64,000 bases of DNA from a candidate division WWE3 bacterium UBA1401. Lineage in GTDB: Bacteria > Patescibacteriota > WWE3 > UBA101185 > UBA10185. Numbering within the stretch: position 1 is the stretch's first letter; each line of letters begins with the position of its first letter. The notes beneath the pieces were generated by a model. The model was given only the letters and a program-made list of their open reading frames with translations, ran no database searches and had not been told where the DNA came from. Shown in pieces: positions 2,203 to 55,630 of the stretch. A program made the position numbers and the translations under genes. The DNA lies in assembly GCA_002305115.1 (NCBI GenBank), contig DBQF01000003.1, positions 129,338 through 193,337 of the forward strand. Direction: 5' to 3'.

Positions 2203-2219
2203 GAAAGGTCGGACCTTTC
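2203..2219. repeat. REP-like palindrome GAAAGGTC-G-GACCTTTC (GGTC-N-GACC family)
   Basis: Perfect 8-1-8 inverted repeat in the rsmD/rpmF divergent intergenic region. Confidence 0.8.
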
Positions 2220-2294
2220 TTGACATACACCTTCTGATCTCCTATAGTACCCAGGTTATTGATTGCTATACCAAATTAAGGATAAAATAAACAC

Positions 2295-2447
2295 ATGCCA
2301 GTACCAAAAAGAAAACTCTCTAAGAGTAGAACAAGACAAAAAAGAAACAAAAAAGTGGAAATGCGCACAACTATAGTTAAGGTAGTTAAAAAAGACGGTA
2401 GCAAGGCCTATAAAAGGCCACATATTGAAGAACATATTGAATTATAG
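2295..2447 (+). CDS. rpmF: 50S ribosomal protein L32
   Basis: 50-aa ORF below the ORF-track size cutoff: MPVPKRKLSKSRTRQKRNKKVEMRTTIVKVVKKDGSKAYKRPHIEEHIEL. The MxVPKRKxSKSR N-terminus is typical of L32. Stop TAG at 2445-2447. Confidence 0.85.
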   Translation: MPVPKRKLSKSRTRQKRNKKVEMRTTIVKVVKKDGSKAYKRPHIEEHIEL

Positions 2448-2448
2448 T

Positions 2449-2868
2449 ATGCCTACAACTGATTCTAGACATGAAGCAAGAAAACTAGCCTTAGGTACAT
2501 TGTATTGTTGGCTCTTTGCAGAAATCGATGAGGAGCAGTGCAAACTACTAACAAAGGAACTGATAACAGGAGAAGGGGTAGACCAAGTATTAGCAGAAGA
2601 CATCATAAGAGGAGTAAAAGAAAATATAGACTACATTGACAGTCTGGTAGAAAAGCACGCACCCGAGTGGCCTATTGACAAAATATCAAAAATTGATTTA
2701 GTAATACTGCGGATTGCAATATTTGAACTCTTGTTCAAAGAAAACATTCCGGAAAAGGTTGCCATTGACGAAGCAGTGGAACTTGCTAAAGAATTTGGCA
2801 ATGAAACATCTAGCAAATTTGTAAATGGGGTTTTAGGCACTATTGCCGAGGAGAAAAAAGATGAATGA
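2449..2868 (+). CDS. nusB: Transcription antitermination factor NusB
   Basis: ORF 2425..2868. The ATG at 2449 directly follows the rpmF stop. SRHEARKLALGTLY N-terminus and a C-terminal FVNGVLG-type motif. Confidence 0.85.
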   Translation: MPTTDSRHEARKLALGTLYCWLFAEIDEEQCKLLTKELITGEGVDQVLAEDIIRGVKENIDYIDSLVEKHAPEWPIDKISKIDLVILRIAIFELLFKENIPEKVAIDEAVELAKEFGNETSSKFVNGVLGTIAEEKKDE

Positions 2869-3094
2869 TTATTTGACAGAAGTAAAAGAAGTGATTGCAG
2901 AAAAGACCGGTGTAGAAATAGAGGAGATCAGTAATGATGCGTATTTCGAGGAAGATCTTAATATTTCTGAATTAGAGCTAATTGATATCGTTACCGAACT
3001 GGAAGAAAAATACCAAGTAGAACTTATTGACGATATGGAAGAAGTCACGTCGGTGCAAGAGTTAGCAGATTTACTAGTGGAAAAAATAGAGTAG
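2861..3094 (+). CDS. Acyl-carrier-protein-like small acidic protein
   Basis: ORF 2843..3094. GAGGAG RBS precedes the ATG at 2861. 77 aa, acidic, with DLNISELELIDIVTELEEKY resembling the ACP DLGxDSLDxVELVxxLEEEF helix II region. Sits upstream of rnc, as acpP does in many bacteria. Confidence 0.6.
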   Translation: MNDYLTEVKEVIAEKTGVEIEEISNDAYFEEDLNISELELIDIVTELEEKYQVELIDDMEEVTSVQELADLLVEKIE

Positions 3095-3096
3095 GC

Positions 3097-3792
3097 ATGA
3101 GTATAGATATTAACAAACTTGAACAAATCTTAGGTATTGACATAAAAGATATTACGCTCTTCACAACCGCATTTACACATAGATCTTTCTTGAACGAGCA
3201 TCCCGACTATGAAAACCCTTCAAATGAAAGGTTGGAATTTTTAGGGGACGCGGTATTGCAACTAATATCTTCCGAATATTTATATGAAAAGTACCCCAGT
3301 TCACCTGAAGGAGATCTAACAAACTATAGAGCCGCAATTGTGTGCACAACTTCTCTGGCAGAAGAAGCGCGAAGGCTTGGCTACGGAGAGCTTTTGCTGT
3401 TATCCAAAGGCGAAGAAGCAACCGGTGGCAGAGACAGAGAATATATTTTAGCCAATACCTTCGAAGCAGTATTAGGGGCAATGTATTTGGCAAAAGGGTT
3501 GACAGCGTGCAAGGAGTTCGTGGCGAGAGAGCTTTTGCATAAAGTGAACAGAATTGTGGCAGAACAAAGCTATAAAGATGCCAAATCACTTTTCCAGGAG
3601 CTAGCACAGGAAAAACTAGCGGTTACACCGGTTTATAAAGTTATTGATTCGTGGGGGCTTGACCATGAAAAAACCTTCAGGGTAGCTGTATATGTAGGGG
3701 AGAAGGAATACGGCACCGGCGAGGGCGGCAGTAAGCAAAAAGCAGAGCAAGATGCCGCAGAAAAAGCATTGGACAAGCTTAAATCTCTTTGA
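3097..3792 (+). CDS. rnc: Ribonuclease III
   Basis: ERLEFLGDAVL signature and a C-terminal dsRBD (GSKQKAEQDAAEKAL). Confidence 0.93.
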   Translation: MSIDINKLEQILGIDIKDITLFTTAFTHRSFLNEHPDYENPSNERLEFLGDAVLQLISSEYLYEKYPSSPEGDLTNYRAAIVCTTSLAEEARRLGYGELLLLSKGEEATGGRDREYILANTFEAVLGAMYLAKGLTACKEFVARELLHKVNRIVAEQSYKDAKSLFQELAQEKLAVTPVYKVIDSWGLDHEKTFRVAVYVGEKEYGTGEGGSKQKAEQDAAEKALDKLKSL

Positions 3793-3805
3793 TAGAATCC
3801 AGTCT

Positions 3806-4132
3806 ATGTCGATTACAATTAGATTAGCAAGATTTGGAAAGAAAAACGCCCCGGCCTACAAGGTTGTTGTGGCACAAACCCGTAGTAAGAGAAACGGTAA
3901 GTTTATTGATGTATTAGGTTACTACAATCCATCGGAAGATCCAAACAATTTTGAACTGGATAAAGAAAAATTTGAAGACTGGAAAGCTAAAGGCGCACTT
4001 ACTACTGACGCGGTAGAACAATTAGTTAATGGTACTTATACTTACACAAAGTATAAACCTAAGAAAAAAGGAGAGGCTGCCCCCGCTGCAGTAGAAACTG
4101 CTGCTGCTCCGGAGACACCTGCTGAAGCATAA
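3806..4132 (+). CDS. rpsP: 30S ribosomal protein S16
   Basis: ORF 3752..4132. Conserved start MSITIRLARFGKKNAPAYKVVV at 3806. Ala/Pro/Glu-rich C-terminal tail. Confidence 0.9.
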   Translation: MSITIRLARFGKKNAPAYKVVVAQTRSKRNGKFIDVLGYYNPSEDPNNFELDKEKFEDWKAKGALTTDAVEQLVNGTYTYTKYKPKKKGEAAPAAVETAAAPETPAEA

Positions 4133-4383
4133 TGCGTGACTTCGTAGAATACCTTTTAACCCAAATTGTAACTAAACCTGAAGAGGTTGAAGTAACAGAA
4201 GACTCTCAAGATGGAAATGTGGACATTAAAATTAAAGTAGCTCCGGAAGATATGGGGCTTGTCATCGGTAAAGAGGGTAAGAATATAAGAAGCCTCAGGG
4301 CTCTGGCAAAAGCAAAGGCTATTAGAGAAAATGTTAGAGTAAATATTCAGCTTCTTGAATCAAAAGAAGAACAAACTGAGTAA
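4132..4383 (+). CDS. KH-domain RNA-binding protein (YlqC/UPF0109 family)
   Basis: 83 aa with VIGKEGKNIRSLRALAKA (GxxG KH motif). Lies in the conserved rpsP-KH-trmD context. Its ATG overlaps the rpsP stop. Confidence 0.85.
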   Translation: MRDFVEYLLTQIVTKPEEVEVTEDSQDGNVDIKIKVAPEDMGLVIGKEGKNIRSLRALAKAKAIRENVRVNIQLLESKEEQTE

Positions 4384-5057: not shown

Positions 5058-5072
5058 CTACTAACGACTAAC
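5051..5072. repeat. TRAC/GTYAG heptad repeat arm (CTGCTAACTACTAACGACTAAC)
   Basis: Inverted relative to 5085..5117. Related copies at 18788..18800, 34005..34028 and 46684..46712. Confidence 0.6.
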
Positions 5073-5084
5073 AAAAACATTCTT

Positions 5085-5117
5085 GTCAGCAGTTAGAAGT
5101 CAGTCGTTAGTTGTCAG
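5085..5117. repeat. Tandem heptads GTCAGCA-GTTAGAA-GTCAGTC-GTTAGTT-GTCAG
   Basis: Five consecutive GTYAGNN units read directly from the sequence. Overlaps the stop of pilin ORF 5107..5583. Confidence 0.6.
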
Positions 5118-23481: not shown

Positions 23482-23494
23482 AGGGTCGGACCTT
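23482..23494. repeat. REP-like palindrome AGGGTC-G-GACCTT
   Basis: GGTC-N-GACC core in the pilB/holB divergent intergenic region. Confidence 0.7.
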
Positions 23495-23634: not shown

Positions 23635-23647
23635 AGGGTCCGACCTT
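23635..23647. repeat. REP-like palindrome AGGGTC-C-GACCTT
   Basis: Same flanks (GAGGGTC.GACCTTTCCGG) as the 23482 copy, with the central base flipped. Confidence 0.7.
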
Positions 23648-23690
23648 TCCGGATAATATTCTATGACAGTTGTGTAGATTTTTGGTTTGG

Positions 23691-23703
23691 AAGGTCTGAC
23701 CCT
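23691..23703. repeat. REP-like palindrome AAGGTC-T-GACCCT
   Basis: Followed by GATTAA, as is the copy at 32164. Confidence 0.7.
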
Positions 23704-23828: not shown

Positions 23829-24467
23829 ATGCATGGAGCAATACTAATATATGGGGCAAACCAACAAACAAGACTGGAAAAACTAGATGAACTTACCCCA
23901 AGAGTCAAACCAGTAGACTTCCTAGAAATAAAGCCCTCGGAAGACAAGCCAAGCATTGGCATCGAACAAGTTCGAGAAATGATAGCTTTTGTTCACGAAA
24001 AACCACTGGAGTCAAAAAACAAACTAGTAACCATATTGAAAGCGCACACTTTGACCATTCCAGCCCAAAATGCACTGCTAAAAACACTCGAAGAACCACC
24101 AACCTACGCAATAATTATACTAGAAGCCAAAAATGAACAGACCCTTCTGCCAACAGTAGTTTCTCGCTGCCAAAGAATACAGCTGCATATGAATATATCT
24201 ACAGAGAAAACAACCGAAGAGTTGGCAATCATACTTAAAATGACTCACGGCGAAAGGCTGGACTGGGTAACAGACAAAGAAAATCAGAGTAGGGAAGGAA
24301 TAGTCGCAATTTTTGATAGCTGGATTAATGAGGAAAGAAGTAGACTCCCGGATAGAGACGCAGTAGCAAATATTGAGTTAATTAGTAGAGTGAAAGAGGA
24401 TGTTGAAAGCACTAATGTGAATTTGAAGCTGGCGCTGGAGTTTTTGGTACTGGGACTAGGGGAATAG
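23829..24467 (+). CDS. holB: DNA polymerase III delta-prime-like clamp-loader subunit
   Basis: 212 aa. NALLKTLEEPP and VVSRCQRIQL (SRC) motifs. No intact Walker A. Confidence 0.7.
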   Translation: MHGAILIYGANQQTRLEKLDELTPRVKPVDFLEIKPSEDKPSIGIEQVREMIAFVHEKPLESKNKLVTILKAHTLTIPAQNALLKTLEEPPTYAIIILEAKNEQTLLPTVVSRCQRIQLHMNISTEKTTEELAIILKMTHGERLDWVTDKENQSREGIVAIFDSWINEERSRLPDRDAVANIELISRVKEDVESTNVNLKLALEFLVLGLGE

Positions 24468-24470
24468 GCA

Positions 24471-24491
24471 AAGAAAGGTCCGACCTTTCTT
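24471..24491. repeat. REP-like palindrome, perfect 10-1-10 AAGAAAGGTC-C-GACCTTTCTT
   Basis: Lies 4 nt after the holB stop and 80 nt upstream of the RAYT-like gene. Confidence 0.85.
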
Positions 24492-24506
24492 AGCTGTTAT
24501 CTCATC

Positions 24507-24529
24507 ATATTCTAGTTAAACTAGAATAT
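24507..24529. repeat. Perfect 23-bp palindrome ATATTCTAGTT-A-AACTAGAATAT
   Basis: 11-1-11 inverted repeat. 21 of its 23 nt recur (reverse-complemented) at 55087..55105. Confidence 0.8.
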
Positions 24530-24570
24530 ACCTCCTTGAAAAATACAATTTACGTTGTAATTTTATACCC

Positions 24571-25155
24571 ATGCCAAGAAAGCATGTTGTTAAAGAATAC
24601 GAAGCAGGTGGGATTTACCACATTCACAATCTATGCATTTGCGGAGCACAAATTCTGTATGTAGAAGAGGATTACGAGTACTTGATGTATCTACTAGAGG
24701 AAGCCCTAACGGAAAACCCAAGCACTAAAGCTAAAGCGCCCAAAAACTTCCACAGCAGAATTGACATTTTTTGCTTTATTTTGCAGAACAACCATTGGCA
24801 TTTTGAAATAAAGCAAAACGATAAAACAGCCATGGCAGAGTTCATGCAAAGTTTAACTATCAGGTTCACTATGAAGATGAACAAAAAATATAAAAGATCT
24901 GGGCCTCTTTTCCATTCCAGGTATCAGGCACGTAAAATCGAGTCAGTAGAAGACGCCATTAATGTTTCAAAGTACATACATTTAAATCCAACTCATGGGG
25001 AAGACCTACGAAAGGACCTTACTTATCCATATTCTAGCGTAACCAGTTATCTTTCAGAGAAACAGAAAGGTCCAACCTTCCTGGACACAAATCACATACT
25101 AGAGCTGTTTGATTTTGATAGGCATAGATACCTGAAATTCCTTATGGAAAGATAA
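24571..25155 (+). CDS. REP-associated tyrosine transposase-like protein (IS200/Y1 HUH transposase superfamily, COG1943-type)
   Basis: GGIYHIHN, EEDYEYLMYLLEE, HUH motif NNHWHFEI, SGPLFHSRYQARKI, and the catalytic-Tyr helix KYIHLNP..YPYSS. Flanked by REP-like palindromes on both sides. Confidence 0.8.
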   Translation: MPRKHVVKEYEAGGIYHIHNLCICGAQILYVEEDYEYLMYLLEEALTENPSTKAKAPKNFHSRIDIFCFILQNNHWHFEIKQNDKTAMAEFMQSLTIRFTMKMNKKYKRSGPLFHSRYQARKIESVEDAINVSKYIHLNPTHGEDLRKDLTYPYSSVTSYLSEKQKGPTFLDTNHILELFDFDRHRYLKFLMER

Positions 25156-25166
25156 GGTCCGACCCT
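25154..25166. repeat. REP-like palindrome AAGGTC-C-GACCCT
   Basis: Overlaps the TAA stop of the RAYT-like gene. Confidence 0.7.
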
Positions 25167-25249
25167 CCCACGCGCCCCGAATCAAGCCCGAAACTCCATG
25201 ACATTCGTTGCTTGAAAATAACAAGGCAATCCATTACAATGTTTCAGTT

Positions 25250-27235
25250 ATGGCAAATCCCGCACAAAACAAGCGATATTCTGACTACACAGCTGAGGAT
25301 ATTCAAGTACTCGAAGGCTTAGAACCGGTAAGAAAACGTCCCGGCATGTATATAGGCTCCACTGGGGTAGAAGGGTTACAACACCTGGTTACTGAAATTG
25401 TAAACAACTCCATGGATGAAGCTATTGCCGGCTATGCTGATCATATCAGAGTGGAGTTTTTTGAAGACGGCTCCGTAGCTATTTATGACAACGGCCGTGG
25501 ATGTCCCTATGAAATGAAAGAGGGTTACGGCGTAAGCGCGCTAGAACTTGCGTATGCCAGACTCCACGCAGGTGGAAAGTTTGGTGGCAAGGGATATAAA
25601 GTATCCAGTGGTTTGCACGGTGTGGGTGCCAGCGTTGTTAACGCCCTTTCTGAGTGGTGCCGAGTTGTAGTCAGAAGAGGGGATGATTTAGTAATTCAGG
25701 AATACCAGAATGGCGGAAACGTGGTCAGACCGGTTGAATCGCTAGATGTTAAAAATCCCACAAAACTAAAGGATGCCAAATGGGGTATTGATTTAGACAA
25801 CTGGAAATATGAATCCGGAACAATTGCACACTTTAAACCAGATGGCACTATTTTTGAAACTACAGATTTTCCTCTGAAATTTTTCATCAGCCAACTCAGG
25901 GAATATGCGTACCTAACTGCAGGCATAAAGTTCGAACTTATAGATCACAGATCAAATGATCACTTCAATTTTTACTTTGAGGGAGGCGTTAAGACGTTTC
26001 TTAAGGATCTAAACAGAAACAAGGCTCCGGTCAACGAAAATGTGTTTCACGTAAGAAAAACTGAAGACGAAGTGGAAGTAGAAGTAGCCATGCAGTATAA
26101 CGATTCCTATTCAGAAAACATTCTCTGTTTTGCTAACCACATCAAAAACAGTGAGGGCGGTACACATTCCACAGGCTTTAGATCTGCCTTAACTAGAACT
26201 GTAAACGATTACGCGAGGAACAATAATTTGCTCAAAGACAAAGACCCTAACCTTACAAGCGACGACTTGAGAGAAGGCTTAACAGCAATAATTTCCGTTA
26301 AACTAGATTCTGCCGCTTTACAATTTGAAGGCCAGACAAAGGCTAAACTTGGCAACTCCAATGTTAGAACCGTAGTAGAAAGCGTAGTAAAAGATGCCCT
26401 AACAACCTTTTTTGAAGAACACCCTAAAGACGCACAAGCAATAATTGAGAAAAACATTTTGTCATTTAAGGCCAGAATGGCTGCTAAAGCCGCTAGAGAC
26501 ACCGTTATAAGAAAAAGCGCCTTAGAAGGTGGGGGCGTATTGCCAGGTAAATTAGCAGATTGTTCGGAAAAAGATAATACTAAAACGGAACTTTTTATAG
26601 TTGAGGGAGATTCTGCAGGCGGTACTGCAAAACAGGCTAGAGATAGTAAAATTCAAGCTATTCTTCCGCTGTTTGGAAAGGTTTTGAACACAGAACGCGC
26701 GAGGCTGGACAAAATAGTAGATTCCGATAAGTTCAAACCACTAATTATTGCTATAGGAGCAGGCATTGGTGAGCAATACACCCCAAAAAGGCTAAGGTAC
26801 AGTAAACTGATTATCATGGCAGATGCGGATTCGGATGGTATGCATATTATGACCCTATACTTAACCTTCTTTTATAGACACATGACAGAACTTGTTAATA
26901 ACGGCCATATTTATGTGGCTGTGCCGCCACTATTCAAGGCAACCTGGGGCAAGAATAAGAAATACCTGTTTGACGAAAAAGAGCGAAATGATTTCCTAAA
27001 AACTGCAGATGGCAAAAAAGCAATAATTCAGAGATTTAAAGGATTAGGCGAAATGAATGCCGAAGAACTCTGGGAAACAACTATGAACCCCCAGACCAGG
27101 CGCTTAAAGCTAATTAGCGTGGAAGACGCTGCACAAGCCGATGAGGTGTTTTCCAAACTAATGGGAAGCGAAGTGGCGCCGAGGAAAAGATTTATTCAGA
27201 CTAACGCCAAACAGGCAGTCTTAGACGTAACATGA
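25250..27235 (+). CDS. gyrB: DNA gyrase subunit B
   Basis: ORF 25208..27235 begins at a TTG. The conserved N-terminus starts at the ATG at 25250 (MANPAQNKRYSDYTAEDIQVLEGLEPVRKRPGMYIGS). GHKL ATPase, Toprim EGDSAGG, PLFGKVLN. Confidence 0.97.
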   Translation: MANPAQNKRYSDYTAEDIQVLEGLEPVRKRPGMYIGSTGVEGLQHLVTEIVNNSMDEAIAGYADHIRVEFFEDGSVAIYDNGRGCPYEMKEGYGVSALELAYARLHAGGKFGGKGYKVSSGLHGVGASVVNALSEWCRVVVRRGDDLVIQEYQNGGNVVRPVESLDVKNPTKLKDAKWGIDLDNWKYESGTIAHFKPDGTIFETTDFPLKFFISQLREYAYLTAGIKFELIDHRSNDHFNFYFEGGVKTFLKDLNRNKAPVNENVFHVRKTEDEVEVEVAMQYNDSYSENILCFANHIKNSEGGTHSTGFRSALTRTVNDYARNNNLLKDKDPNLTSDDLREGLTAIISVKLDSAALQFEGQTKAKLGNSNVRTVVESVVKDALTTFFEEHPKDAQAIIEKNILSFKARMAAKAARDTVIRKSALEGGGVLPGKLADCSEKDNTKTELFIVEGDSAGGTAKQARDSKIQAILPLFGKVLNTERARLDKIVDSDKFKPLIIAIGAGIGEQYTPKRLRYSKLIIMADADSDGMHIMTLYLTFFYRHMTELVNNGHIYVAVPPLFKATWGKNKKYLFDEKERNDFLKTADGKKAIIQRFKGLGEMNAEELWETTMNPQTRRLKLISVEDAAQADEVFSKLMGSEVAPRKRFIQTNAKQAVLDVT

Positions 27236-28176: not shown

Positions 28177-28179
28177 TTT

Positions 28180-30750: not shown

Positions 30751-30755
30751 AAGGG

Positions 30756-30770
30756 AAGGGTCCGACCCTT
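30756..30770. repeat. REP-like palindrome AAGGGTC-C-GACCCTT followed by ATTTTAT
   Basis: Perfect 7-1-7, 6 nt after the gyrA stop. A T-rich trailer makes it terminator-like. Confidence 0.8.
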
Positions 30771-30881
30771 ATTTTATACCGTTACAAGGGAATTCCTGAC
30801 AGAAATCCAAGCGTATTTTCTCCAACGCGAGAACAATTACTATGAAATTTGTACCTCAAATTGCGTAAAAACAACCCAGGA

Positions 30882-30898
30882 GAAAGGTCCGACCTTTC
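30882..30898. repeat. REP-like palindrome GAAAGGTC-C-GACCTTTC
   Basis: Perfect 8-1-8. Confidence 0.8.
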
Positions 30899-31133
30899 CT
30901 TCTAACGGCCGAAACGAATCTGGTGTCACCTGGAACAATCAAAATCAAACAAGCAACAATCGCTGCTATGGCTATAGCAGTCCAGGCAATACCAATGTTG
31001 CCAAACCAACGGTTGTATCTGCAGGTAGAACGAACAAGAGCAAGTATGCTTGACCTAAACCTCCTTTCTTGTACCTGTAGAAGGCGGAATATTCGGCTTA
31101 GCGTAATCACTTTCTAGAGCACCTATACACAAG

Positions 31134-31166
31134 AAAAAGAGAGGTTGCTTCGGCACTTCTCTTTTT
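31134..31166. terminator. Long A/T-framed hairpin AAAAAGAGAGGTTGC-TTCG-GCACTTCTCTTTTT
   Basis: Stem of ~14 bp with one bulge and a TTCG tetraloop. T-runs on both strands make it look bidirectional. Confidence 0.45.
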
Positions 31167-31187
31167 CCCTCCATTTCCAACATAAGC

Positions 31188-31193
31188 TATAAT
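31188..31193 (+). promoter_or_regulatory. Candidate -10 box within the duplicated 12-mer ATAAGCTATAAT
   Basis: Consensus TATAAT ~50 nt upstream of ORF 31244. The same 12-mer recurs at 31704..31715. Confidence 0.4.
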
Positions 31194-31243
31194 ATCCCCA
31201 TAGCCCACACACTGGGTGTGGAGAATGAATGGAGGGATCATCA

Positions 31244-31618
31244 ATGCAGGTAATAAAAATCCTTGAACAGACGGGGAAGGGACATCTAGTCATATGCGTT
31301 TTTGCTGTTTCTAAGCAGAGTGACATTGCCGCCACAAAAGTAGCTATTGACGTCGCTTTGGATAGTTGGGAACGTCCACAACAATACCAAGAGGTGTCTA
31401 TTATCATAGAAGCATCTGACCTTGCTGCGGAAGCACTTAGACACTCAATCAACAGCTCCCTACACCTTAGGAAAAAACTCCGCAGTATATTACTTGTAGG
31501 GAGTCCAACACAAATCACGGCTACAGTCGAGAAGCTACAGGGATATGCAGACGAGCGTACAGGGAGATACATACCAGTAGTCTCAGCCATCGAGAGACTC
31601 CCAATAATCGCTGAGTAA
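31244..31618 (+). CDS. Hypothetical protein (124 aa)
   Basis: ORF 31229..31618. GGAGGG RBS precedes the ATG at 31244. The + strand translation looks balanced and protein-like (MQVIKILEQTGKGHLVICVFAV...), whereas the antisense ORF 31123..31623 is Cys/Ser-rich. No motif recognised. Confidence 0.4.
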   Translation: MQVIKILEQTGKGHLVICVFAVSKQSDIAATKVAIDVALDSWERPQQYQEVSIIIEASDLAAEALRHSINSSLHLRKKLRSILLVGSPTQITATVEKLQGYADERTGRYIPVVSAIERLPIIAE

Positions 31619-31649
31619 CCCATCGTAATACTAGGACAGGGGTGATGTC

Positions 31650-31662
31650 AAGGTCTGACCTT
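31650..31662. repeat. REP-like palindrome AAGGTC-T-GACCTT
   Basis: Perfect 6-1-6 between the two hypothetical ORFs. Confidence 0.75.
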
Positions 31663-31709
31663 ACACCACCTCTGTCACCCCAAACAATCCCTAGAATCCC
31701 CATATAAGC

Positions 31710-31715
31710 TATAAT
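31710..31715 (+). promoter_or_regulatory. Candidate -10 box within the second copy of ATAAGCTATAAT
   Basis: TATAAT ~50 nt upstream of ORF 31768. The adjacent ATCCCCATA 9-mer is also shared with the first copy. Confidence 0.4.
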
Positions 31716-31767
31716 CAATAACAGAGTACCCGCCGCCAAATACGCGGCTAGAAAGGCGTGAGAAAGA

Positions 31768-32112
31768 ATGAGGAGCAAAAGGGGTGAAAGGCCACAGATC
31801 GTGGTCTTAAACACCTCTCCGATGGCAAAAGAGATTTTCCATCTGCTCCAATACACTTCACTGAATGCAGTCTTAGCACATCCAGAGGAACCACAAGATG
31901 GCTGTCAAAATGCAATAGCCATCTTGCATCTGCATGGCAGCACACAGGTACAGCAAGAACTGGTTGGAAACTTCGAAAAAATTATAGTTCTTGTTACAGG
32001 AGTGCCCGATATAGAGCAAGAAAGCACAGAAACAATCAATTTTCTAGCTTTAGACATAAGTGCTGAAGGCTTCCTCGGACTACGTAACTACATTGCAAAT
32101 CTACCAAACTAG
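31768..32112 (+). CDS. Hypothetical protein (114 aa), alternating beta/alpha pattern reminiscent of a receiver-like fold without the acceptor Asp
   Basis: QIVVLNT / AIAILHLH / KIIVLVTG / INFLALD hydrophobic strands alternate with helices. No conserved DD..D..K residues are identifiable. Confidence 0.35.
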   Translation: MRSKRGERPQIVVLNTSPMAKEIFHLLQYTSLNAVLAHPEEPQDGCQNAIAILHLHGSTQVQQELVGNFEKIIVLVTGVPDIEQESTETINFLALDISAEGFLGLRNYIANLPN

Positions 32113-32163
32113 CATCTCACCAGGCTTGGTTCCAAAACACTGGGATCAGGCCTTTTCTTGTGG

Positions 32164-32176
32164 AGGGTCGGACCCT
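32164..32176. repeat. REP-like palindrome AGGGTC-G-GACCCT
   Basis: Perfect 6-1-6. Forms a tandem pair with 32183..32197. Confidence 0.8.
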
Positions 32177-32182
32177 GATTTA

Positions 32183-32197
32183 AAAGGTCAGACCTTT
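32183..32197. repeat. REP-like palindrome AAAGGTC-A-GACCTTT
   Basis: Perfect 7-1-7, ~48 nt upstream of rnhB. Confidence 0.8.
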
Positions 32198-32244
32198 CTG
32201 ACAACCGGCAAGCAACCTTTTCTTACGAATGCTAAAATCAACCC

Positions 32245-32910
32245 ATGCCAAAACTTCCACTGACTCAATTCGAAATAGCCCTCTGGCAAACCGGTATAGA
32301 CTACATAGCTGGGGTAGATGAAGTGGGTAGGGGATCACTTGCAGGTCCCTTGGTCGTAGGAGCAGTAATATTAAACAAACAACACCTACTTACAAATAGC
32401 GACGTCGCGCCAGAAATTTTTGAACTTTATGCGGCAGTTGACGATTCCAAGAAATTATCTCCTAGAAAAAGGGAGCAGTTGGCCAAATTTATAAAAAACC
32501 AAGCAATGGCCCATGCAATTTTTGAAATACCCCCGCATGAAATAGACAAATTTGGCATAGCACAAGCTACACAAAACGCGTTTTTTGGAAGCATTCGGCA
32601 ACTGGCTATAAAACCCCAGCACATCTTAACAGACACCTTCGCAATAAAAGAATATCCAGAACAAATTCAGACCAATATAATAAAAGGCGATCAAAAGAGC
32701 ATAACTATCGCAGCAGCTTCAATTGTGGCCAAAGTATACAGAGATAACTTGATGGTGGAATATCACAAGATCTACAAAAACTACTGTTTCGACGCGCACA
32801 AAGGTTATGGCACTAAGAGACATAAAGAAGCAATTGAAAAATATGGGCCTTGTGACTTGCACAGGAAAAGTTTTGAACCTATCCGATCGTATCTACAAGA
32901 TCATCACTAA
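32245..32910 (+). CDS. rnhB: Ribonuclease HII
   Basis: GVDEVGRGSLAGPLVVGAVIL plus DSKKLS and SIVAKV motifs. Confidence 0.9.
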   Translation: MPKLPLTQFEIALWQTGIDYIAGVDEVGRGSLAGPLVVGAVILNKQHLLTNSDVAPEIFELYAAVDDSKKLSPRKREQLAKFIKNQAMAHAIFEIPPHEIDKFGIAQATQNAFFGSIRQLAIKPQHILTDTFAIKEYPEQIQTNIIKGDQKSITIAAASIVAKVYRDNLMVEYHKIYKNYCFDAHKGYGTKRHKEAIEKYGPCDLHRKSFEPIRSYLQDHH

Positions 32911-44342: not shown

Positions 44343-44352
44343 GGGACCGTCC
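44343..44352. repeat. GGGAC-C-GTCC variant palindrome, copy 1
   Basis: ACGGGACCGTCCTCGA. Confidence 0.55.
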
Positions 44353-44403
44353 TCGAGGAAATTTCCAGAATTGCTGTCTTTAGAACAAAACCGGAGAAAA
44401 CAT

Positions 44404-44418
44404 TGGGGACCGTCCCCA
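44404..44418. repeat. GGGAC-C-GTCC variant palindrome, copy 2 (perfect 7-1-7 TGGGGAC-C-GTCCCCA)
   Basis: Read directly from the sequence. Confidence 0.7.
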
Positions 44419-44470: not shown

Positions 44471-44480
44471 GGGACCATCC
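44471..44480. repeat. GGGAC-C-ATCC variant palindrome, copy 3 (degenerate)
   Basis: AAGGGACCATCCTCAA shares GGGACC.TCCTC.A with copy 1. Confidence 0.5.
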
Positions 44481-44514
44481 TCAATTTTATGGGATAGTCT
44501 AGACATTGCATAGG

Positions 44515-44527
44515 AAGGTCGGACCTT
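44515..44527. repeat. REP-like palindrome AAGGTC-G-GACCTT
   Basis: Perfect 6-1-6, 46 nt upstream of tRNA-Leu. Its ~45-nt right flank resembles that of the copy at 23635. Confidence 0.8.
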
Positions 44528-44572
44528 GAATGGTAATATCTGACAACTGTGTGATAGAATCTGATGGTATTT

Positions 44573-44661
44573 GCCACGGTGGCGGAACTGGTATACGCGT
44601 TGGTCTCAAAAACCAATGGAAGGCGACTTTCGTGTGGGTTCGATTCCCACCCGTGGCACCA
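44573..44661 (+). tRNA. tRNA-Leu (anticodon CAA), class II, with encoded CCA
   Basis: Manually folded. Acceptor GCCACGG/CCGTGGC, 3-bp D stem with GG in the loop, anticodon stem TTGGT/ACCAA with loop CTCAAAA, 17-nt variable arm, T arm GTGGG-TTCGATT-CCCAC, discriminator A plus CCA. Confidence 0.92.
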
Positions 44662-46813: not shown

Positions 46814-46830
46814 GGAAGGTCAGACCTTCC
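46814..46830. repeat. REP-like palindrome GGAAGGTC-A-GACCTTCC
   Basis: Perfect 8-1-8. Confidence 0.85.
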
Positions 46831-47143: not shown

Positions 47144-48196
47144 GTGCACCAGACAACAGGAAGGGGCGGACCCTTCCCTAACCCACCCTCTTTCCTGTAT
47201 CATTACCCTGTGTTCCTAAAAAAACGCAATATAAAACACCTGGCCTATATTGCCCTGCTCTTAACCACCATCATTTGGGCAGCTGCCGGCCCTGTCATAA
47301 AACTCACACTTGAGTACATTCCACCCATCTCCTTCCTGTTTTATCGATTCTTAATAGTGTGCGTAATCGTTCTTCCCTTTTTCATCTGGGAACTCAAAAA
47401 AGAACCTATCGCTAAACAAGATCTACCTAACCTCATTGTACTAGGCTTACTAAGCCAAACGGTCCTTATTATTTGTTTTTTGGGCTACAATTTCACTAAC
47501 ACTATTGAAGCTTCCCTCATCTCTGTTATGTACCCAATCATTGCCATTGCAGCTGCCAGTTATTTTTATAAAGAAACTGTAGGCAAGATGGAAAAGGTGG
47601 GGGTGATAATAGCCACATTCGGAGCTATTGTGGTTATCTTCGAGCCATTGTTGTCTGGAAATCACATCACCGAAGCTTCAAATTACAGACTGCTGGGCAA
47701 CCTTCTAATCCTTTTGTACCAATTCGCCTGGCTGGTATATATCATCTGGTCTAAAAGAATCATGGGCAAAAAATCTTCCAAACTAACCAAGACCTCCAAG
47801 ATCTTGCACATCAAACCCATGAGCAAAGATTATTCCCCCACCGTCATAACCCTATTCACATTTTACGTAGGCCTAGCCTCCTTTATTCCGCTAGTACTAA
47901 TGGAAGCAGCGGGGCTATTTGGCGCAACCTATTTTTCTATTACTAGAATAGGCATTACCGGGCTGCTGGGACTTTTGTATATGGCGATTTTGTCTTCCAT
48001 TGTGGCTTGCATATTATTTCAGTGGGGTCTTGACAAGGCCGAAGTAACAGATACAGCTTTATTTACTTATCTTGGCCCAGTATTCACCTTTCCAGTGGCG
48101 TTTATGCTCTTAAGCGAAATCCCTACGCTAACTGTTGTCTTGGGGGCAGCAATTATTGCCAGCGGAGTGTTAATTGCCGAAAGATATAAATCTTGA
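47144..48196 (+). CDS. EamA/DMT-family transporter
   Basis: Ten hydrophobic segments with a duplicated EamA architecture. The GTG at 47144 would translate a REP-like copy (47159..47177), so the GTG at 47210 (MFLKKRNIKHLAYIALLL) is the more likely start. Confidence 0.8.
   Translation: MHQTTGRGGPFPNPPSFLYHYPVFLKKRNIKHLAYIALLLTTIIWAAAGPVIKLTLEYIPPISFLFYRFLIVCVIVLPFFIWELKKEPIAKQDLPNLIVLGLLSQTVLIICFLGYNFTNTIEASLISVMYPIIAIAAASYFYKETVGKMEKVGVIIATFGAIVVIFEPLLSGNHITEASNYRLLGNLLILLYQFAWLVYIIWSKRIMGKKSSKLTKTSKILHIKPMSKDYSPTVITLFTFYVGLASFIPLVLMEAAGLFGATYFSITRIGITGLLGLLYMAILSSIVACILFQWGLDKAEVTDTALFTYLGPVFTFPVAFMLLSEIPTLTVVLGAAIIASGVLIAERYKS
47159..47177. repeat. REP-like palindrome, one mismatch: GGAAGGGGC-G-GACCCTTCC
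   Basis: Lies in the doubtful 5' extension of the EamA ORF. Confidence 0.6.
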
Positions 48197-51958: not shown

Positions 51959-51966
51959 ACTAATAA

Positions 51967-53945: not shown

Positions 53946-53968
53946 GAGATTATGATATCACACACTGT

Positions 53969-54223
53969 TTACAATGCGTGCCGGTCTGTGTAAGGAAGAA
54001 GTGCCATATAGCGAGCTTTTTTGATGGCACTAGAAAGCTTACGTTGATTCTTAGCCGTTAGGCCGGTAATGCTGTTGTGCAGAATCTTGCCTCTATCGGA
54101 AATAAATCTGCGCAGAATTAGCACATCTTTGTAATCGGGGGTAGTACCACTTCGACTGAAGTAGCATTTGGTTGAGACTTTTCTACTATCTTTCTTGTTT
54201 TTCTTCCTTACAAATTTTGCCAT
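53969..54223 (-). CDS. rpsR: 30S ribosomal protein S18
   Basis: [49 protein letters not shown]. Confidence 0.93.
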
Positions 54224-54241
54224 ATGTATTTAAACTAAAGC

Positions 54242-54706
54242 TTACTCTTCAGTACCTTCTTCATCTAAAGAAGTACTGGAAAGCAATTCATCTAAATCAA
54301 TTTCTTCTTCCGAAGAACTCATGTCACTCACGTCTTGATCTTCTGACTGAGAATCGCCGTCTGCACCGGATCTACCTGAGGACAACAGGATCATCTGATC
54401 TATTACTACCTCAGTTTTGTATCTTTTTTCACCATTGTTATTCTGCCAATCTCTGGTTTGTAATCTACCTTCTACATAAACTTTACTACCTTTGGCTAGT
54501 AACTGGGAGCAAAGTTCGGCTAGTTTATTCCAAGCTACTACATTATGAAAATCAGCAGCCTCTTTCTTCTGGCCTTCTGAAACCCATTCTCTATTGGTTG
54601 CTAAACCGAAGCTTGCTACAGCAGTACCTTGAGGAGTGTACCTAAGTTCCGGATCTCTGGTAAGATTCCCAATTAATATAACTTTGTTAACGCTTCGTGC
54701 AGACAT
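54242..54706 (-). CDS. ssb: Single-stranded DNA-binding protein
   Basis: VNKVILIGNLTRDPELRYTPQGTAVASFGLATNR OB fold, with an acidic tail. Confidence 0.93.
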   Translation of the reverse strand: MSARSVNKVILIGNLTRDPELRYTPQGTAVASFGLATNREWVSEGQKKEAADFHNVVAWNKLAELCSQLLAKGSKVYVEGRLQTRDWQNNNGEKRYKTEVVIDQMILLSSGRSGADGDSQSEDQDVSDMSSSEEEIDLDELLSSTSLDEEGTEE

Positions 54707-54711
54707 TACGT

Positions 54712-55017
54712 TTACTCCTTCTCTTCAGCCTGATTGCTGAGTGTAATTAAATACCTTACTAAACCATCTGTCATGTTCAAACGGGACTTTAATTGTTCCA
54801 CGTTTGCACTATCTAGCTCAAATGTTAGTACATCGTAATAACCCTCGGTATCCGAACCGATAGGATAGGCAAGACCCCTTTTACCCCAATATTTAGTTTC
54901 CATAATAGAACCACCTAGGGAGGTTACTATTTCCTGGATTTCTGCCGAAAGCTTTTTTGCGCCTTCCTCACCCAGGTTTTGTTCTGCTATTGTCATTAAT
55001 TCGTATGACTGTTTCAT
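54712..55017 (-). CDS. rpsF: 30S ribosomal protein S6
   Basis: YELMTI.., KYWGKRGLAYPI. Lies in the rpsF-ssb-rpsR order. Confidence 0.9.
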   Translation of the reverse strand: MKQSYELMTIAEQNLGEEGAKKLSAEIQEIVTSLGGSIMETKYWGKRGLAYPIGSDTEGYYDVLTFELDSANVEQLKSRLNMTDGLVRYLITLSNQAEEKE

Positions 55018-55086
55018 ATAAGTTTTGTATAACCTTTTATAACGCGGGCATTATACTAACATGTAAATATCTTGTCTACAACCAAA

Positions 55087-55105
55087 ATTCTAGTTTAACT
55101 AGAAT
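55087..55105. repeat. Palindrome ATTCTAGTT-T-AACTAGAAT (second copy of the 24507 element)
   Basis: Perfect 9-1-9, ~70 nt upstream of rpsF. Confidence 0.8.
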
Positions 55106-55150
55106 ATGCTCGGTTAGACAGATGGCTACCGGATTATTAGGAGGATTAGG

Positions 55151-55163
55151 AGGGTCCGACCTG
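55151..55163. repeat. REP-like copy AGGGTC-C-GACCTG
   Basis: Intact GGTCCGACC core with degenerate arms. Confidence 0.6.
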
Positions 55164-55481
55164 CACTCATCTCAATCCTTCACCTACAATAAAGAGTATG
55201 GGAAATGTTATTCCAATCTATTCCAGCTAGCCCAATCAATTTCCCTACGTAGAGGGGAAAATATACACACAACCTAAACACTGGGATTCATCTGGCTTGA
55301 CTACAGTATAAGTAAAAGACGAGCGTGTCTGAAATTCTTTACGGCATCGTAGTCCATAACCACATCACGTACGCTAAGCATTCTTAGCCGAAACTGAACT
55401 GAGGTGTTTCTAGGCTTTCCGGAACAGTAAAATCATCTGGTACTAGCTTCTGCATACTAGTATTTTACAATAAAAAAGGTG

Positions 55482-55500
55482 GGAAGGGTCCAACCTTTCC
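55482..55500. repeat. REP-like degenerate copy GGAAGGGTC-C-AACCTTTCC
   Basis: Two mismatches to a perfect palindrome. Confidence 0.5.
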
Positions 55501-55617
55501 TGGTAGCAGACGGGATTTTATTATCATAGCAACAAATAATGCACAGGGAGCCTTTGATTTTAATAACAGTATTTTGTCTAGTTAACGTAGAAGATTGCTT
55601 TAGCAAAGGACTCCAGC

Positions 55618-55630
55618 AGGGTCGAACCCT
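55618..55630. repeat. REP-like degenerate copy AGGGTCGAACCCT
   Basis: One substitution relative to AGGGTC-N-GACCCT. Lies 25 nt past the ychF stop. Confidence 0.5.

What the first reader, a model, noticed from the sequence alone, without database searches (positions are those of the whole stretch)
2203..55630. Dispersed intergenic palindrome family RRARGGTC-N-GACCYTYY (at least 17 copies in 64 kb)
Copies read directly from the sequence: 2203-2219, 23482-23494, 23635-23647, 23691-23703, 24471-24491, 25154-25166, 30756-30770, 30882-30898, 31650-31662, 32164-32176, 32183-32197, 44515-44527, 46814-46830, 47159-47177, 55151-55163, 55482-55500 and 55618-55630. There is also a possible degenerate copy, AAGGT-AGC-ACCTT, at 1580-1592. 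All lie outside confident CDSs; the only exception sits in a doubtful 5' extension of the EamA ORF. All four bases occur at the centre. Arms vary from 4 to 10 bp. Copies occur after stops (holB, gyrA, ychF), in divergent promoter regions (rsmD/rpmF, pilB/holB, efp/tRNA-Leu) and as tandem pairs (32164/32183). Some copies share longer flanks: GACCCTGATT(T)AA at 23698 and 32171, and a ~45-nt GACCTT..AATAT..TGACA..TGTGT.GAT tail at about 23637-23680 and 44517-44560. This suggests a larger mobile or structured unit. Competing explanations are REP elements, a hairpin terminator/stabiliser, or an operator for a dimeric regulator.
Basis: seen in the sequence. Interest (0 to 1): 0.65.

Follow-up and report, generated by a model that had tools for sequence, protein, structure and literature searches.

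The report
REP-like hairpins with their transposase
The scattered GGTC-N-GACC palindromes are real and are most likely miniature REP-type elements belonging to a single REP-associated tyrosine transposase (RAYT-like) gene in the same window, a known kind of system apparently not yet described in ultra-small CPR/Patescibacteria genomes.

Summary
GGTCNGACC occurs 15 times in 64 kb against 0.37 expected. Fourteen copies have the R…Y flanks and four more differ by one base. All but one of these 18 lie outside confident coding sequence.

ORF 24571-25155 encodes a Y1 HUH transposase with an HUH motif and a YIHLNP tyrosine motif. Its best HMM match is NCBIfam REP-associated tyrosine transposase, and its best structural match is E. 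coli TnpA_REP bound to a REP hairpin (4er8). The strongest palindrome of the family sits just upstream of it. Another overlaps its stop codon.

The window comes from a WWE3/Katanobacteria-like CPR bacterium. Homologues of the protein (30-39% identical) occur across Patescibacteria. In 9 of 10 contexts examined they are flanked by hairpins with the same or a closely related core (GGTCNGACC, GGTTNAACC, GGTGNCACC, GGTCYGTCC). Forty-five WWE3 relatives with the same gene order total 718 kb. They contain one core copy and one RAYT homologue, and their orthologous spacers are 3- to 30-fold shorter.

Best reading: a REP/RAYT-type system whose minimal hairpin has proliferated in this lineage. It departs from classical REPs. 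It is shorter and fully symmetric. Its conserved part is at the hairpin apex, with no GTAG/CGTC tag at the foot. Mobilisation by the transposase is inferred, not shown.

The parts
24571..25155 (+). RAYT-like Y1 (HUH) tyrosine transposase gene, 194 aa. It is the only copy in the window.
   Evidence: Pfam PF01797 Y1_Tnp 31.5 bits (cut-off 23). NCBIfam NF047646 REP-associated tyrosine transposase 35.6 bits, below its cut-off of 80. Invariant H75/H77 and Y135-IHLNP. AF2 pLDDT 89.8. Top Foldseek PDB hit is 4er8_A, TnpA_REP with a REP hairpin. Profile search of the six-frame translation finds no other copy or remnant.
24468..24494 (.). Longest and most stable copy, GCAAAGAAAGGTCCGACCTTTCTTAGC. It lies 4 nt after the holB stop and its centre is 90 nt upstream of the RAYT start.
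   Evidence: ssDNA fold -8.7 kcal/mol, z = -5.2.
25154..25166 (.). Copy AAGGTCCGACCCT overlapping the RAYT stop codon. Its centre base is C, as in the upstream copy.
   Evidence: Homologues in L083 and L091 have the same arrangement, with a hairpin overlapping the 3' end of the gene.
25063..25083 (.). Degenerate copy CAGAAAGGTCCAACCTTCCTG inside the 3' coding part of the RAYT gene.
2203..2219 (.). Copy GAAAGGTCGGACCTTTC in the divergent spacer between rsmD and rpmF.
   Evidence: Fold -5.3 kcal/mol.
23482..23494 (.). Copy AGGGTCGGACCTT in the pilB/holB divergent spacer (first of 3).
23635..23647 (.). Copy AGGGTCCGACCTT in the pilB/holB spacer (second of 3). Its right flank, CCGGATAA..TGACAGTTG, is shared with an out-of-window copy.
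23691..23703 (.). Copy AAGGTCTGACCCT in the pilB/holB spacer (third of 3), 56 nt from the previous copy.
30756..30770 (.). Copy AAGGGTCCGACCCTT, 6 nt after the gyrA stop. It is one of the few copies with a T-rich tail.
30882..30898 (.). Copy GAAAGGTCCGACCTTTC in the expanded gyrA-rnhB spacer.
31650..31662 (.). Copy AAGGTCTGACCTT between two weakly coding lineage-specific ORFs.
32164..32176 (.). Copy AGGGTCGGACCCT, first of a pair whose centres are 20 nt apart. It lies downstream of a separate terminator-like hairpin at 32122-32153.
32183..32197 (.). Copy AAAGGTCAGACCTTT, second of the pair, upstream of rnhB.
44515..44527 (.). Copy AAGGTCGGACCTT in the efp/tRNA-Leu spacer. In relative L082 the RAYT gene occupies this spacer.
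46814..46830 (.). Copy GGAAGGTCAGACCTTCC in the divergent spacer between the MBL-fold gene and EamA.
   Evidence: Fold -6.0 kcal/mol, z = -5.8.
47159..47177 (.). Variant copy GGAAGGGGCGGACCCTTCC with one core mismatch, in the doubtful 5' extension of the EamA ORF.
   Evidence: Fold -7.3 kcal/mol. The Pfam EamA match starts at residue 33.
55151..55163 (.). Short copy AGGGTCCGACCTG in the 637-nt spacer between ychF and rpsF.
55482..55500 (.). Variant copy GGAAGGGTCCAACCTTTCC in the same spacer.
55618..55630 (.). Variant copy AGGGTCGAACCCT, 25 nt downstream of the ychF stop. It shares a 17-nt flank with the gyrA copy.

Best explanation
The palindromes are a family of miniature REP-type elements, and their cognate enzyme is the single RAYT-like Y1/HUH tyrosine transposase encoded at 24571-25155.

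**Proposed mechanism**
When DNA is single-stranded, the RRAGG-TCNGA-CCTYY sequence folds into a short hairpin. The stem ends in GG/CC (or GGT/ACC) and the apex is a 3-5 nt TCNGA loop. The transposase recognises this conserved apex and upper stem, as IS200/IS605 TnpA and E. coli TnpA_REP recognise their hairpins. It cleaves and rejoins single-stranded DNA nearby. In this lineage that activity has spread copies into most larger intergenic spacers, while the transposase gene itself stays single-copy between two copies.

**Shown**
- Strong over-representation of the motif and its extragenic location.
- The identity and fold of the protein.
- The flanking arrangement around the gene, here and in 9 of 10 homologous contexts across Patescibacteria.
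- Absence of both motif and gene from nearly all syntenic relatives.
- Expansion of the spacers that carry copies.

**Inferred**
- That the hairpin forms in vivo.
- That the protein binds and cleaves it.
- That it is what moved the copies.
- Any secondary host effect, such as mRNA 3'-end stabilisation or protein binding.
For: **The motif**
- 15 exact cores against 0.37 expected; 18 against 3.08 with flanks and up to 1 mismatch.
- All but one of the 18 lie outside confident CDS, although only about 7-10% of the window is non-coding.
- Two more copies lie in 8.4 kb outside the window.

**The protein**
- The ORF is a Y1_Tnp above Pfam's cut-off.
- All 25 aligned homologues hit NCBIfam REP_Tyr_transpos; only 1 of 25 hits IS200.
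- HUH and YIHLNP are invariant.
- In the high-confidence AF2 model, the best and longest PDB match is 4er8, TnpA_REP bound to a REP hairpin. ISDra2 and IS608 TnpA come next.

**The flanking arrangement**
- The gene is flanked by the family's most stable hairpin (-8.7 kcal/mol) and by a copy on its stop codon.
- Homologues (30-39% identity) carry their own flanking hairpins with the same or a related core:
  - L088: GCTCAGGGTC[G/C]GACCCTGAGC, two copies.
  - L091: TGGCAAGGTCCGACCT[T/C]GCCA, 7 upstream and 1 on the gene's 3' end.
  - L089: TTGCAGGGTG[A/T]CACCCTGCAA, both sides.
  - L085 and L086: GGGAGGTC[T/C]GTCCTCCC, both sides.
  - L083: GATCCGACC/GGTCGGATC, both sides.
  - L082: CAAGGTTTAACCCTG.
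  - L112: AGGTCCATCCT, two copies upstream and one inverted downstream.

**Comparison with relatives**
- 45 WWE3-like loci with conserved pilB<->holB-gyrB-gyrA-rnhB synteny (718 kb) hold 1 core copy and 1 RAYT homologue.
- Their spacers have medians of 122, 67 and 50 nt, against 408, 782 and 1494 nt here.
- Only one transposase copy, and no remnant, is present in the window, against at least 18 hairpins.
Against: - No closely related genome was found: best gyrA identity is 74% and best RAYT identity 39%. Strain-level insertion polymorphism, the direct sign of mobility, is therefore untested.
- The classical REP hallmark, a conserved GTAG/CGTC tetranucleotide at the hairpin foot, is absent.
- About half of the copies are too short to fold better than shuffled sequence as free ssDNA.
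- Position +/-5 varies as independent R and Y without covariation. What is conserved is therefore sequence rather than pairing, which would also fit a duplex-binding dimeric protein.
- The protein scores below NCBIfam's curated cut-off (35.6 against 80).
- In most homologous loci the hairpins are confined to the gene's flanks, which taken alone looks like an IS200-type element.
- The RAYT position differs among three WWE3-like genomes (window, L082, L112). The gene is therefore not strictly vertically fixed.
- Copy density is known for only about 72 kb of the genome.
Confidence: 0.78

Rival explanations
1. The palindromes are operators or binding sites on duplex DNA for a symmetric dimeric protein, such as a global regulator or a nucleoid or insulator protein. 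Their association with the transposase gene would be incidental or autoregulatory.
For: - The core is a perfect dyad with a free central base.
- The two half-sites vary independently at +/-5 (R on the left, Y on the right, no covariation).
- Many copies are too short to be stable hairpins.
- Several lie in divergent promoter spacers.
Against: - Distance to start codons ranges from about 35 to about 500 nt. There are up to 3 copies per spacer, and several lie directly after stop codons.
- The same housekeeping spacers in 45 syntenic relatives lack the motif.
- The same core flanks a Y1 transposase gene in distant CPR classes. A lineage-specific regulator does not explain this.
- The extrapolated density, about one per 4 kb, is far above that of known regulons. 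This comparison is inference.
Confidence: 0.07
2. The palindromes act mainly at the RNA level, as 3'-end hairpins (terminators or mRNA stabilisers) selected at operon boundaries.
For: - Copies sit 4-60 nt after the stops of holB, the RAYT gene, gyrA, two small ORFs and ychF.
- The whole block 23829-32910 is transcribed on the + strand.
- The copy at 30756-30770 has a T-rich tail.
- E. coli REPs are known to stabilise upstream mRNA (own knowledge).
Against: - Most copies lack a U-tract.
- A separate canonical terminator at 32122-32153 precedes the 32164/32183 pair.
- Six or seven copies lie in divergent spacers, where no transcript ends.
- Stem mismatches on the transcribed strand are A.C at least as often as G.U.
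- Relatives with the same operons do without the motif.
- A secondary role of this kind remains possible for some copies.
Confidence: 0.07
3. The palindromes are solo ends or remnants of an ordinary autonomous IS200/IS605-type insertion sequence, or a chance or compositional k-mer effect, rather than a REP-type population.
For: - In most homologous loci only the two flanking hairpins are seen.
- The gene sits at three different positions in three WWE3-like genomes.
- The profile search against PDB sequences scores ISDra2 TnpA slightly above TnpA_REP.
Against: - There is one transposase gene and no remnants, against at least 18 hairpins in 64 kb.
- No sequence resembling the transposase gene accompanies the dispersed copies.
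- Chance is excluded by the shuffles.
- HMM and fold comparisons favour RAYT over IS200.
- Homologue P0037 is seen at the same pilB/recA locus in many samples.
Confidence: 0.05

Closest known systems
E. coli REP/BIME elements and TnpA_REP (RAYT; PDB 4er8)
   Same: - Short extragenic palindromes in many copies.
- A single Y1/HUH transposase gene flanked by copies.
- The protein model's best PDB match is 4er8, and NCBIfam's RAYT model is the best HMM.
- Many copies lie just after stop codons.
   Different: - The elements here are 13-27 nt, against the usual 20-40.
- They are perfectly symmetric, so both strands give the same hairpin.
- The conserved part is the apex (GGTCNGACC), not a GTAG tag at the foot.
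- The protein is only about 15% identical to 4er8 and falls below the NCBIfam cut-off.
- The host is a roughly 1-Mb CPR genome. That size is inferred from the complete WWE3 genome of 878 kb listed.
REPIN-RAYT systems of Pseudomonas (Bertels & Rainey; PMC3116915, PMC5581495)
   Same: - A single-copy transposase with over-represented flanking palindromes.
- A lineage-specific burst of copies.
- Some homologous loci carry true inverted doublets that form a longer hairpin: L089 (39-nt TTGCAAGGTGACACCCTGTTGCAGGGTGTCACCTTGCAA) and L083.
   Different: - In the window most copies are singletons. Only a few pairs occur, with centres 20 or 56 nt apart.
- The flanking-16-mer diagnostic does not suit an 11-13 nt core.
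- The core is conserved across CPR classes at 33-39% protein identity, whereas REP sequences are usually species-specific (PMC6006769).
IS200/IS605 family (IS608, ISDra2) subterminal hairpins
   Same: - The same protein fold and catalytic motifs.
- Hairpins on both sides of the gene with the same centre base, meaning the same strand (window C/C; L091 all C; L085 T/T; L086 C/C).
   Different: - The transposase is not multi-copy.
- Hairpins greatly outnumber genes.
- The tyrosine motif is the family-invariant Y-IHLNP. That this is the RAYT type rather than the IS200 type rests on own knowledge.
- Only 1 of 25 homologues touches the IS200 HMM.
HIP1 (GCGATCGC) of cyanobacteria and other highly iterated short palindromes (own knowledge)
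   Same: A very short, perfectly symmetric, lineage-specific palindrome at high density.
   Different: - HIP1 is abundant inside genes as well and has no flanked cognate transposase.
- The copies here are almost exclusively extragenic and tied to a RAYT-like gene.

Membership tests
REP / REPIN elements | Short palindromic repeat strongly over-represented and confined to extragenic space | tested here: met
   15 against 0.37 expected and 18 against 3.08. Only 1 of 18 copies lies in confident CDS, with about 7-10% of the window non-coding. Two more copies lie outside the window.
REP / REPIN elements | Copies flank a cognate RAYT gene | tested here: met
   24468-24494 lies upstream and 25154-25166 lies on the stop codon. 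The same arrangement holds in 9 of 10 homologous contexts.
REP / REPIN elements | Conserved tetranucleotide (GTAG or CGTC) 5' to the foot of the hairpin (PMC3733652; PMC6006769) | tested here: not met
   Flanks anchored at the stem foot show only purine enrichment and no conserved tetranucleotide. The conserved bases are at the apex.
REP / REPIN elements | Length about 20-40 bp (PMC3733652 abstract) | tested here: not met
   Palindromes are 9-27 nt. Two of 18 reach 20 nt or more, and most are 13-19 nt.
REP / REPIN elements | Organisation as inverted doublets (REPINs) | tested here: inconclusive
   The window has mostly singletons, with pairs whose centres are 20 nt (32170/32190) or 56 nt (23641/23697) apart. 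A 56-nt pair also occurs in L092 and a 57-nt pair in L088. Orientation cannot be read from a symmetric core.
REP / REPIN elements | Mobility: presence/absence polymorphism between close relatives | not testable with these tools
   No relative closer than 74% gyrA identity was found in genome or metagenome collections. The only available evidence is at family level: orthologous spacers are 3- to 30-fold longer here.
RAYT (TnpA_REP) proteins | Y1 HUH nuclease fold with HUH motif and catalytic tyrosine | tested here: met
   PF01797 above cut-off. H75/H77 and Y135 invariant in 25 homologues. AF2 pLDDT 89.8, with top hits all Y1 transposases.
RAYT (TnpA_REP) proteins | Sequence membership in the curated RAYT family rather than IS200 TnpA | tested here: inconclusive
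   NF047646 is the best and almost the only NCBIfam hit for 25 of 25 homologues (best E-value 1.6e-16), against IS200 for 1 of 25. The window protein scores 35.6 bits, below the cut-off of 80. The PDB profile search scores ISDra2 slightly above 4er8, while Foldseek ranks 4er8 first.
RAYT (TnpA_REP) proteins | Single copy per genome (PMC5581495) | tested here: inconclusive
   One copy and no remnant in the 64-kb window. The protein was seen on one contig per assembly. The rest of the genome was not available.
RAYT (TnpA_REP) proteins | Binds and cleaves its REP as single-stranded DNA | not testable with these tools
   This is a biochemical property. The only data are predicted ssDNA hairpin energies, from -8.7 to about 0 kcal/mol.
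Autonomous IS200/IS605 insertion sequence | Multiple near-identical transposase copies, each bounded by one left and one right hairpin | tested here: not met
   One gene against at least 18 hairpins. No transposase-derived sequence accompanies the other copies.
Intrinsic terminators | GC-rich hairpin followed directly by a T/U tract, at the 3' ends of transcription units | tested here: not met
   In 22-33 kb only 30756-30770 (+ strand) qualifies, plus minus-strand readings of 32187-32202 and of the copy inside the RAYT ORF (25063-25086). A separate terminator lies at 32122-32153. Six or seven copies lie in divergent spacers.
Operator of a dimeric regulator | Fixed position relative to promoter or start codon, with sites conserved in orthologous promoters | tested here: not met
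   Distances to starts range from about 35 to about 500 nt. The motif is absent from the same spacers in 45 relatives.

The most novel reading that the evidence does not exclude
Patescibacteria carry an old, largely single-copy RAYT family whose cognate hairpin apex (GGT-C/T/G-N-G/A/C-A/T-CC) has been kept across classes (WWE3, Saccharimonadia, Spechtbacterales).

The gene lies directly beside replication or recombination genes in 6 of 10 contexts: holB/gyrB, dnaB, recA, ruvA/ruvC and gyrB/gyrA. Five contexts also have type IV pilus genes close by.

On this reading the enzyme-hairpin pair is a domesticated single-strand-DNA processing module with a host role. That role could be at replication forks, in recombination, or on DNA taken up through the pilus. 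The burst of minimal hairpins in this lineage would then be a side effect or an extension of that role, rather than purely selfish spread.
Probability: 0.12. Interest if true: 0.7.

Novelty: new variant of a known kind. Interest (0 to 1): 0.45.

Why it matters
REP/RAYT systems have been studied almost entirely in Proteobacteria with large genomes. Three full-text searches found no paper linking REPs, REPINs or RAYTs with Patescibacteria/CPR. The one paper holding both 'REP-associated tyrosine transposase' and CPR terms reports the gene in an archaeon.

- **Streamlined genomes.** A proliferating repeat family in a streamlined genome of about 1 Mb shows that such genomes still tolerate, or use, intragenomic replicators. 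Here it has enlarged conserved housekeeping spacers 3- to 30-fold.
- **A simple recognition model.** The element is close to the minimum conceivable: an 11-13 nt symmetric hairpin whose conserved part is the apex. The same apex accompanies the transposase across distant CPR classes. This gives a tractable model for how Y1 transposases recognise DNA.
- **A practical marker.** The motif and its RAYT gene are a ready marker for annotating CPR intergenic regions, where these copies could otherwise be mistaken for terminators or operators.

Tried and rejected
- **Rfam scan.** At gathering thresholds the window gave only tRNA-Leu, so no known RNA family covers the copies.
- **Single-sequence PDB search.** It found nothing relevant. 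A profile and a fold search were needed.
- **Extending the contig.** The look-up with ORF 124-1509 failed because there was no exact product on record. rsmD worked.
- **Search for close relatives.** The genome and metagenome scans with gyrA found none, with maxima of 74% and 73% identity. Strain-level polymorphism could not be tested.
- **Conserved tetranucleotide at the hairpin foot.** None found.
- **Covariation within the stem.** Position +/-5 fits independent R/Y variation.
- **G.U versus A.C bias on the transcribed strand.** None found.
- **Fixed spacing to TAGAAT-type -10 boxes.** Rejected by inspection: spacings are 13, 32 and 37 nt.
- **Common extended unit of about 45 nt.** Only subsets share flanks.
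- **Decayed second RAYT genes in the large REP-bearing spacers.** None detectable.
- **Second dispersed family, GGACNGTCC.** It is not enriched window-wide (9 against 10.6 expected). The only exact copies are two of a local triplet.
- **Enriched palindromes in 21 WWE3 gyrA loci.** None found.

Full report
**1. The observation**

- The nine-base core GGTCNGACC occurs 15 times in the 64-kb window. The expectation is 0.37, with a maximum of 3 in 100 dinucleotide-preserving shuffles.
- With the flanking purine and pyrimidine (RGGTCNGACCY) and up to one mismatch there are 18 sites against 3.08 expected.
- Fourteen are exact. Four (25068, 47163, 55486, 55619) carry one core change but have long arms.
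The core at 25723 inside gyrB lacks the flanks and is at chance level.
- The arms are purine-rich on the left and pyrimidine-rich on the right, and extend from 4 to 13 bp.
- Non-coding DNA is only about 7-10% of the window. Only one of the 18 sites lies inside confident coding sequence.
- As an out-of-sample check I fetched 8.4 kb upstream of the window from the same Logan contig. It holds two more copies, both in a divergent spacer.

**2. The organism and its relatives**

GyrA places the window in the candidate division WWE3 (Katanobacteria) part of the Patescibacteria/CPR. The best identity is 74% in 185,579 species genomes and 73% in JGI metagenomes.

Forty-five WWE3-like loci share the gene order pilC-pilT-pilB <-> holB-gyrB-(DHH)-gyrA-rnhB -> <- xerC with the window. 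In their 718 kb there is one copy of the core, against 15 in the window's 64 kb. An unbiased count found no other enriched palindrome in the 21 of these loci that were scanned. The family is therefore specific to this lineage.

**3.

ORF 24571-25155 (194 aa) matches Pfam Y1_Tnp above its gathering score. Its only NCBIfam match is NF047646, REP-associated tyrosine transposase, at 35.6 bits, below the curated 80.

A search of 5.8 billion proteins found 94 homologues. Most are about 205 aa and 30-39% identical. The sources that give a taxon name them Saccharibacteria, Saccharimonadia, Spechtbacterales or Patescibacteria group.

- In an alignment of 25 homologues the HUH histidines (H75, H77) and the Y135-I-H-L-N-P motif are invariant.
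- All 25 hit the RAYT model and only one hits the IS200 model.
- An AlphaFold model built on that alignment has mean pLDDT 89.8.
- Its best and longest match among solved structures is 4er8, the E. coli REP-associated tyrosine transposase bound to a REP hairpin. ISDra2, IS608 and IS200 transposases follow.
- A profile search of the PDB sequences finds the same two groups.
- A profile search of the window's six-frame translation finds this one gene and no remnant of another.

**4. The link between gene and palindromes**

The longest and most stable member of the family is GCAAAGAAAGGTCCGACCTTTCTTAGC (-8.7 kcal/mol as ssDNA, z = -5.2). It lies between the holB stop and the transposase start. A second copy overlaps the transposase stop codon, and a degenerate one lies in its 3' coding part.

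Flanking could be chance in a region where every spacer has a copy, so I examined ten genomic contexts of homologues. In nine, the gene is flanked by hairpins of the same or a closely related core:

| Locus | Flanking hairpin | Arrangement |
|---|---|---|
| L088 | GCTCAGGGTC[G/C]GACCCTGAGC | two copies upstream |
| L091 (Spechtbacterales) | TGGCAAGGTCCGACCT[T/C]GCCA | seven upstream, one on the 3' end of the gene |
| L089 | TTGCAGGGTG[A/T]CACCCTGCAA | both sides, including a 39-nt inverted doublet |
| L085, L086/L087 (Saccharimonadia) | GGGAGGTC[T/C]GTCCTCCC | both sides |
| L083 | GATCCGACC / GGTCGGATC | doublets on both sides |
| L082 | TTTGCAAGGTTTAACCCTGCAAA | upstream |
| L112 | AGGTCCATCCT | twice upstream, once inverted downstream |

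Only L090 shows nothing comparable. In most of these loci the hairpins occur only next to the gene. The pairing of this protein family with a GGT-N-N-N-N-CC apex hairpin is therefore specific, and it is conserved across CPR classes. What is special about the window's lineage is that the hairpin has multiplied.

**5. Effect on the genome**

In the relatives, the pilB-holB, holB-gyrB and gyrA-rnhB spacers have medians of 122, 67 and 50 nt. In the window they measure:

- 408 nt, with three copies;
- 782 nt, with the transposase and its copies;
- 1494 nt, with five copies and two weakly coding ORFs that have no counterpart in any relative.

The transposase gene sits in three different places in three WWE3-like genomes: holB/gyrB here, gyrB/gyrA in L112, and efp/tRNA-Leu in L082. 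The window keeps a palindrome copy in that last spacer.

**6. Rival readings**

*Operator.* This reading does not fit.
- Distances to start codons range from about 35 to about 500 nt.
- Spacers carry up to three copies.
- The same promoters in relatives lack the motif.

*Terminator or RNA hairpin.* This does not fit as the main explanation.
- Few copies have a T tract.
- A separate canonical terminator precedes the 32164/32183 pair.
- Six or seven copies lie between divergent genes.
- Mismatches in the stems show no preference for G.U on the transcribed strand.
- A secondary effect on mRNA 3' ends for the copies that follow stop codons is not excluded.

*Plain IS200-type element.* This does not fit one gene against at least 18 hairpins.

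**7. Differences from classical REPs**

Reviews describe REPs as 20-40 bp hairpins with a conserved GTAG or CGTC at the foot (PMC3733652 abstract; PMC6006769). Here:

- Most copies are 13-19 nt.
- The core is perfectly symmetric, so both strands offer the same hairpin.
- No base outside the palindrome is conserved.
- The conserved part is the apex.
- Position +/-5 varies as R and Y independently rather than by compensating changes.
- About half of the copies are no more stable than shuffled sequence.

Either many copies are decayed, or recognition rests on sequence more than on a long stem. For these reasons I file the family as a variant of the REP/RAYT kind rather than as a plain member.

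**8. What is shown and what is inferred**

Shown:
- enrichment and extragenic location;
- the protein's family and fold;
- the conserved gene-hairpin association across Patescibacteria;
- absence from syntenic relatives;
- spacer expansion.

Inferred:
- hairpin formation on single-stranded DNA;
- binding and cleavage by the transposase;
- that the transposase spread the copies.

Strain-level insertion polymorphism could not be tested because no close relative exists in the searchable collections.

Three full-text searches found no paper linking REP, REPIN or RAYT with Patescibacteria. The one paper that mentions both reports the gene in an archaeon.

**9. Verdict**

It is a new variant of a known kind of system in a lineage where it has apparently not been described. 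It is of moderate interest.

Noticed in passing
window 24509-24527 and 55087-55105; L082 895-917: A second palindrome, ATTCTAGTTAAACTAGAAT, lies between the upstream hairpin and the RAYT start. It recurs about 70 nt upstream of rpsF (4 strand-matches against 0.07 expected). L082 has an analogous ATTCTAA-N5-TTAGAAT upstream of its RAYT. It contains TAGAAT on both strands, so it could be face-to-face -10 boxes or an operator.
   Followed up: partly
window 44343-44354, 44406-44417, 44471-44482: Three copies of GGGACCGTCC[T/C]C lie 63-65 nt apart in the efp/tRNA-Leu spacer. This related palindrome type (GGACNGTCC) is not enriched elsewhere in the window. In relative L082 the RAYT gene occupies this same spacer, so the triplet may be a relic hairpin cluster.
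   Followed up: partly
window 44573-44661 versus L082 1576-1664: The same tRNA-Leu(CAA) lies between efp and dnaB in both genomes but on opposite strands. A hairpin copy is adjacent in each. This may be a local inversion next to the repeat.
   Followed up: no
window 30739-30770 and 55618-55650: The copies after gyrA and after ychF share a 17-nt flank that includes the stop codon: GA[A/G]AAGTAGA[A/G]GGGAAGGGT. The element with a short flank may have supplied or replaced the gene's 3' end.
   Followed up: no
window 25123-25136, 30943-30956 (inverted), about 55554-55566: The 14-mer TGTTTGATTTTGAT from the 3' coding part of the RAYT gene recurs inverted near the 30890 copy. TTTGATTTTAATA occurs near the 55491/55624 copies. 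No protein-level RAYT remnant is detectable there.
   Followed up: partly
window 30751-32244: The gyrA-rnhB spacer is 1494 nt, against a median of 50 nt in relatives. It holds two weakly coding ORFs (31244-31618 and 31768-32112) with no Pfam hit and no homologue in 45 WWE3 loci. Each is bracketed by hairpin copies. The longest ORF there (31123-31623, minus strand) scores as non-coding.
   Followed up: partly
window 23641/23697; L092 14072/14128; L088 9917/9974: Pairs of copies with 56-57 nt between centres recur in three places. The right flank of 23641 resembles the inverted flank of the L092 copy (CCGGATAA..TGA.AGTTG). This may be a doublet subfamily.
   Followed up: partly
L081, L082, L085-L088, L112 (gene neighbourhoods): The RAYT-like gene lies directly beside replication or recombination genes in 6 of 10 contexts: holB/gyrB, dnaB, recA/recX, ruvA/ruvC and gyrB/gyrA. 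In five contexts it lies within 10 kb of type IV pilus genes.
   Followed up: no
L015 4275-4298: The only core copy in 718 kb of WWE3-like relatives, AAGAAAGGGTCTGACCCTTACC, sits in an unusually long gyrB-DHH spacer of a single-cell genome. That genome may carry its own RAYT elsewhere.
   Followed up: no
window 32122-32153: A canonical terminator-like hairpin (13 pairs, followed by TTTCTTGTGG) lies directly after the stop of ORF 31768-32112 and upstream of the hairpin pair. Intrinsic terminators therefore exist in this genome independently of the palindrome family.
   Followed up: no
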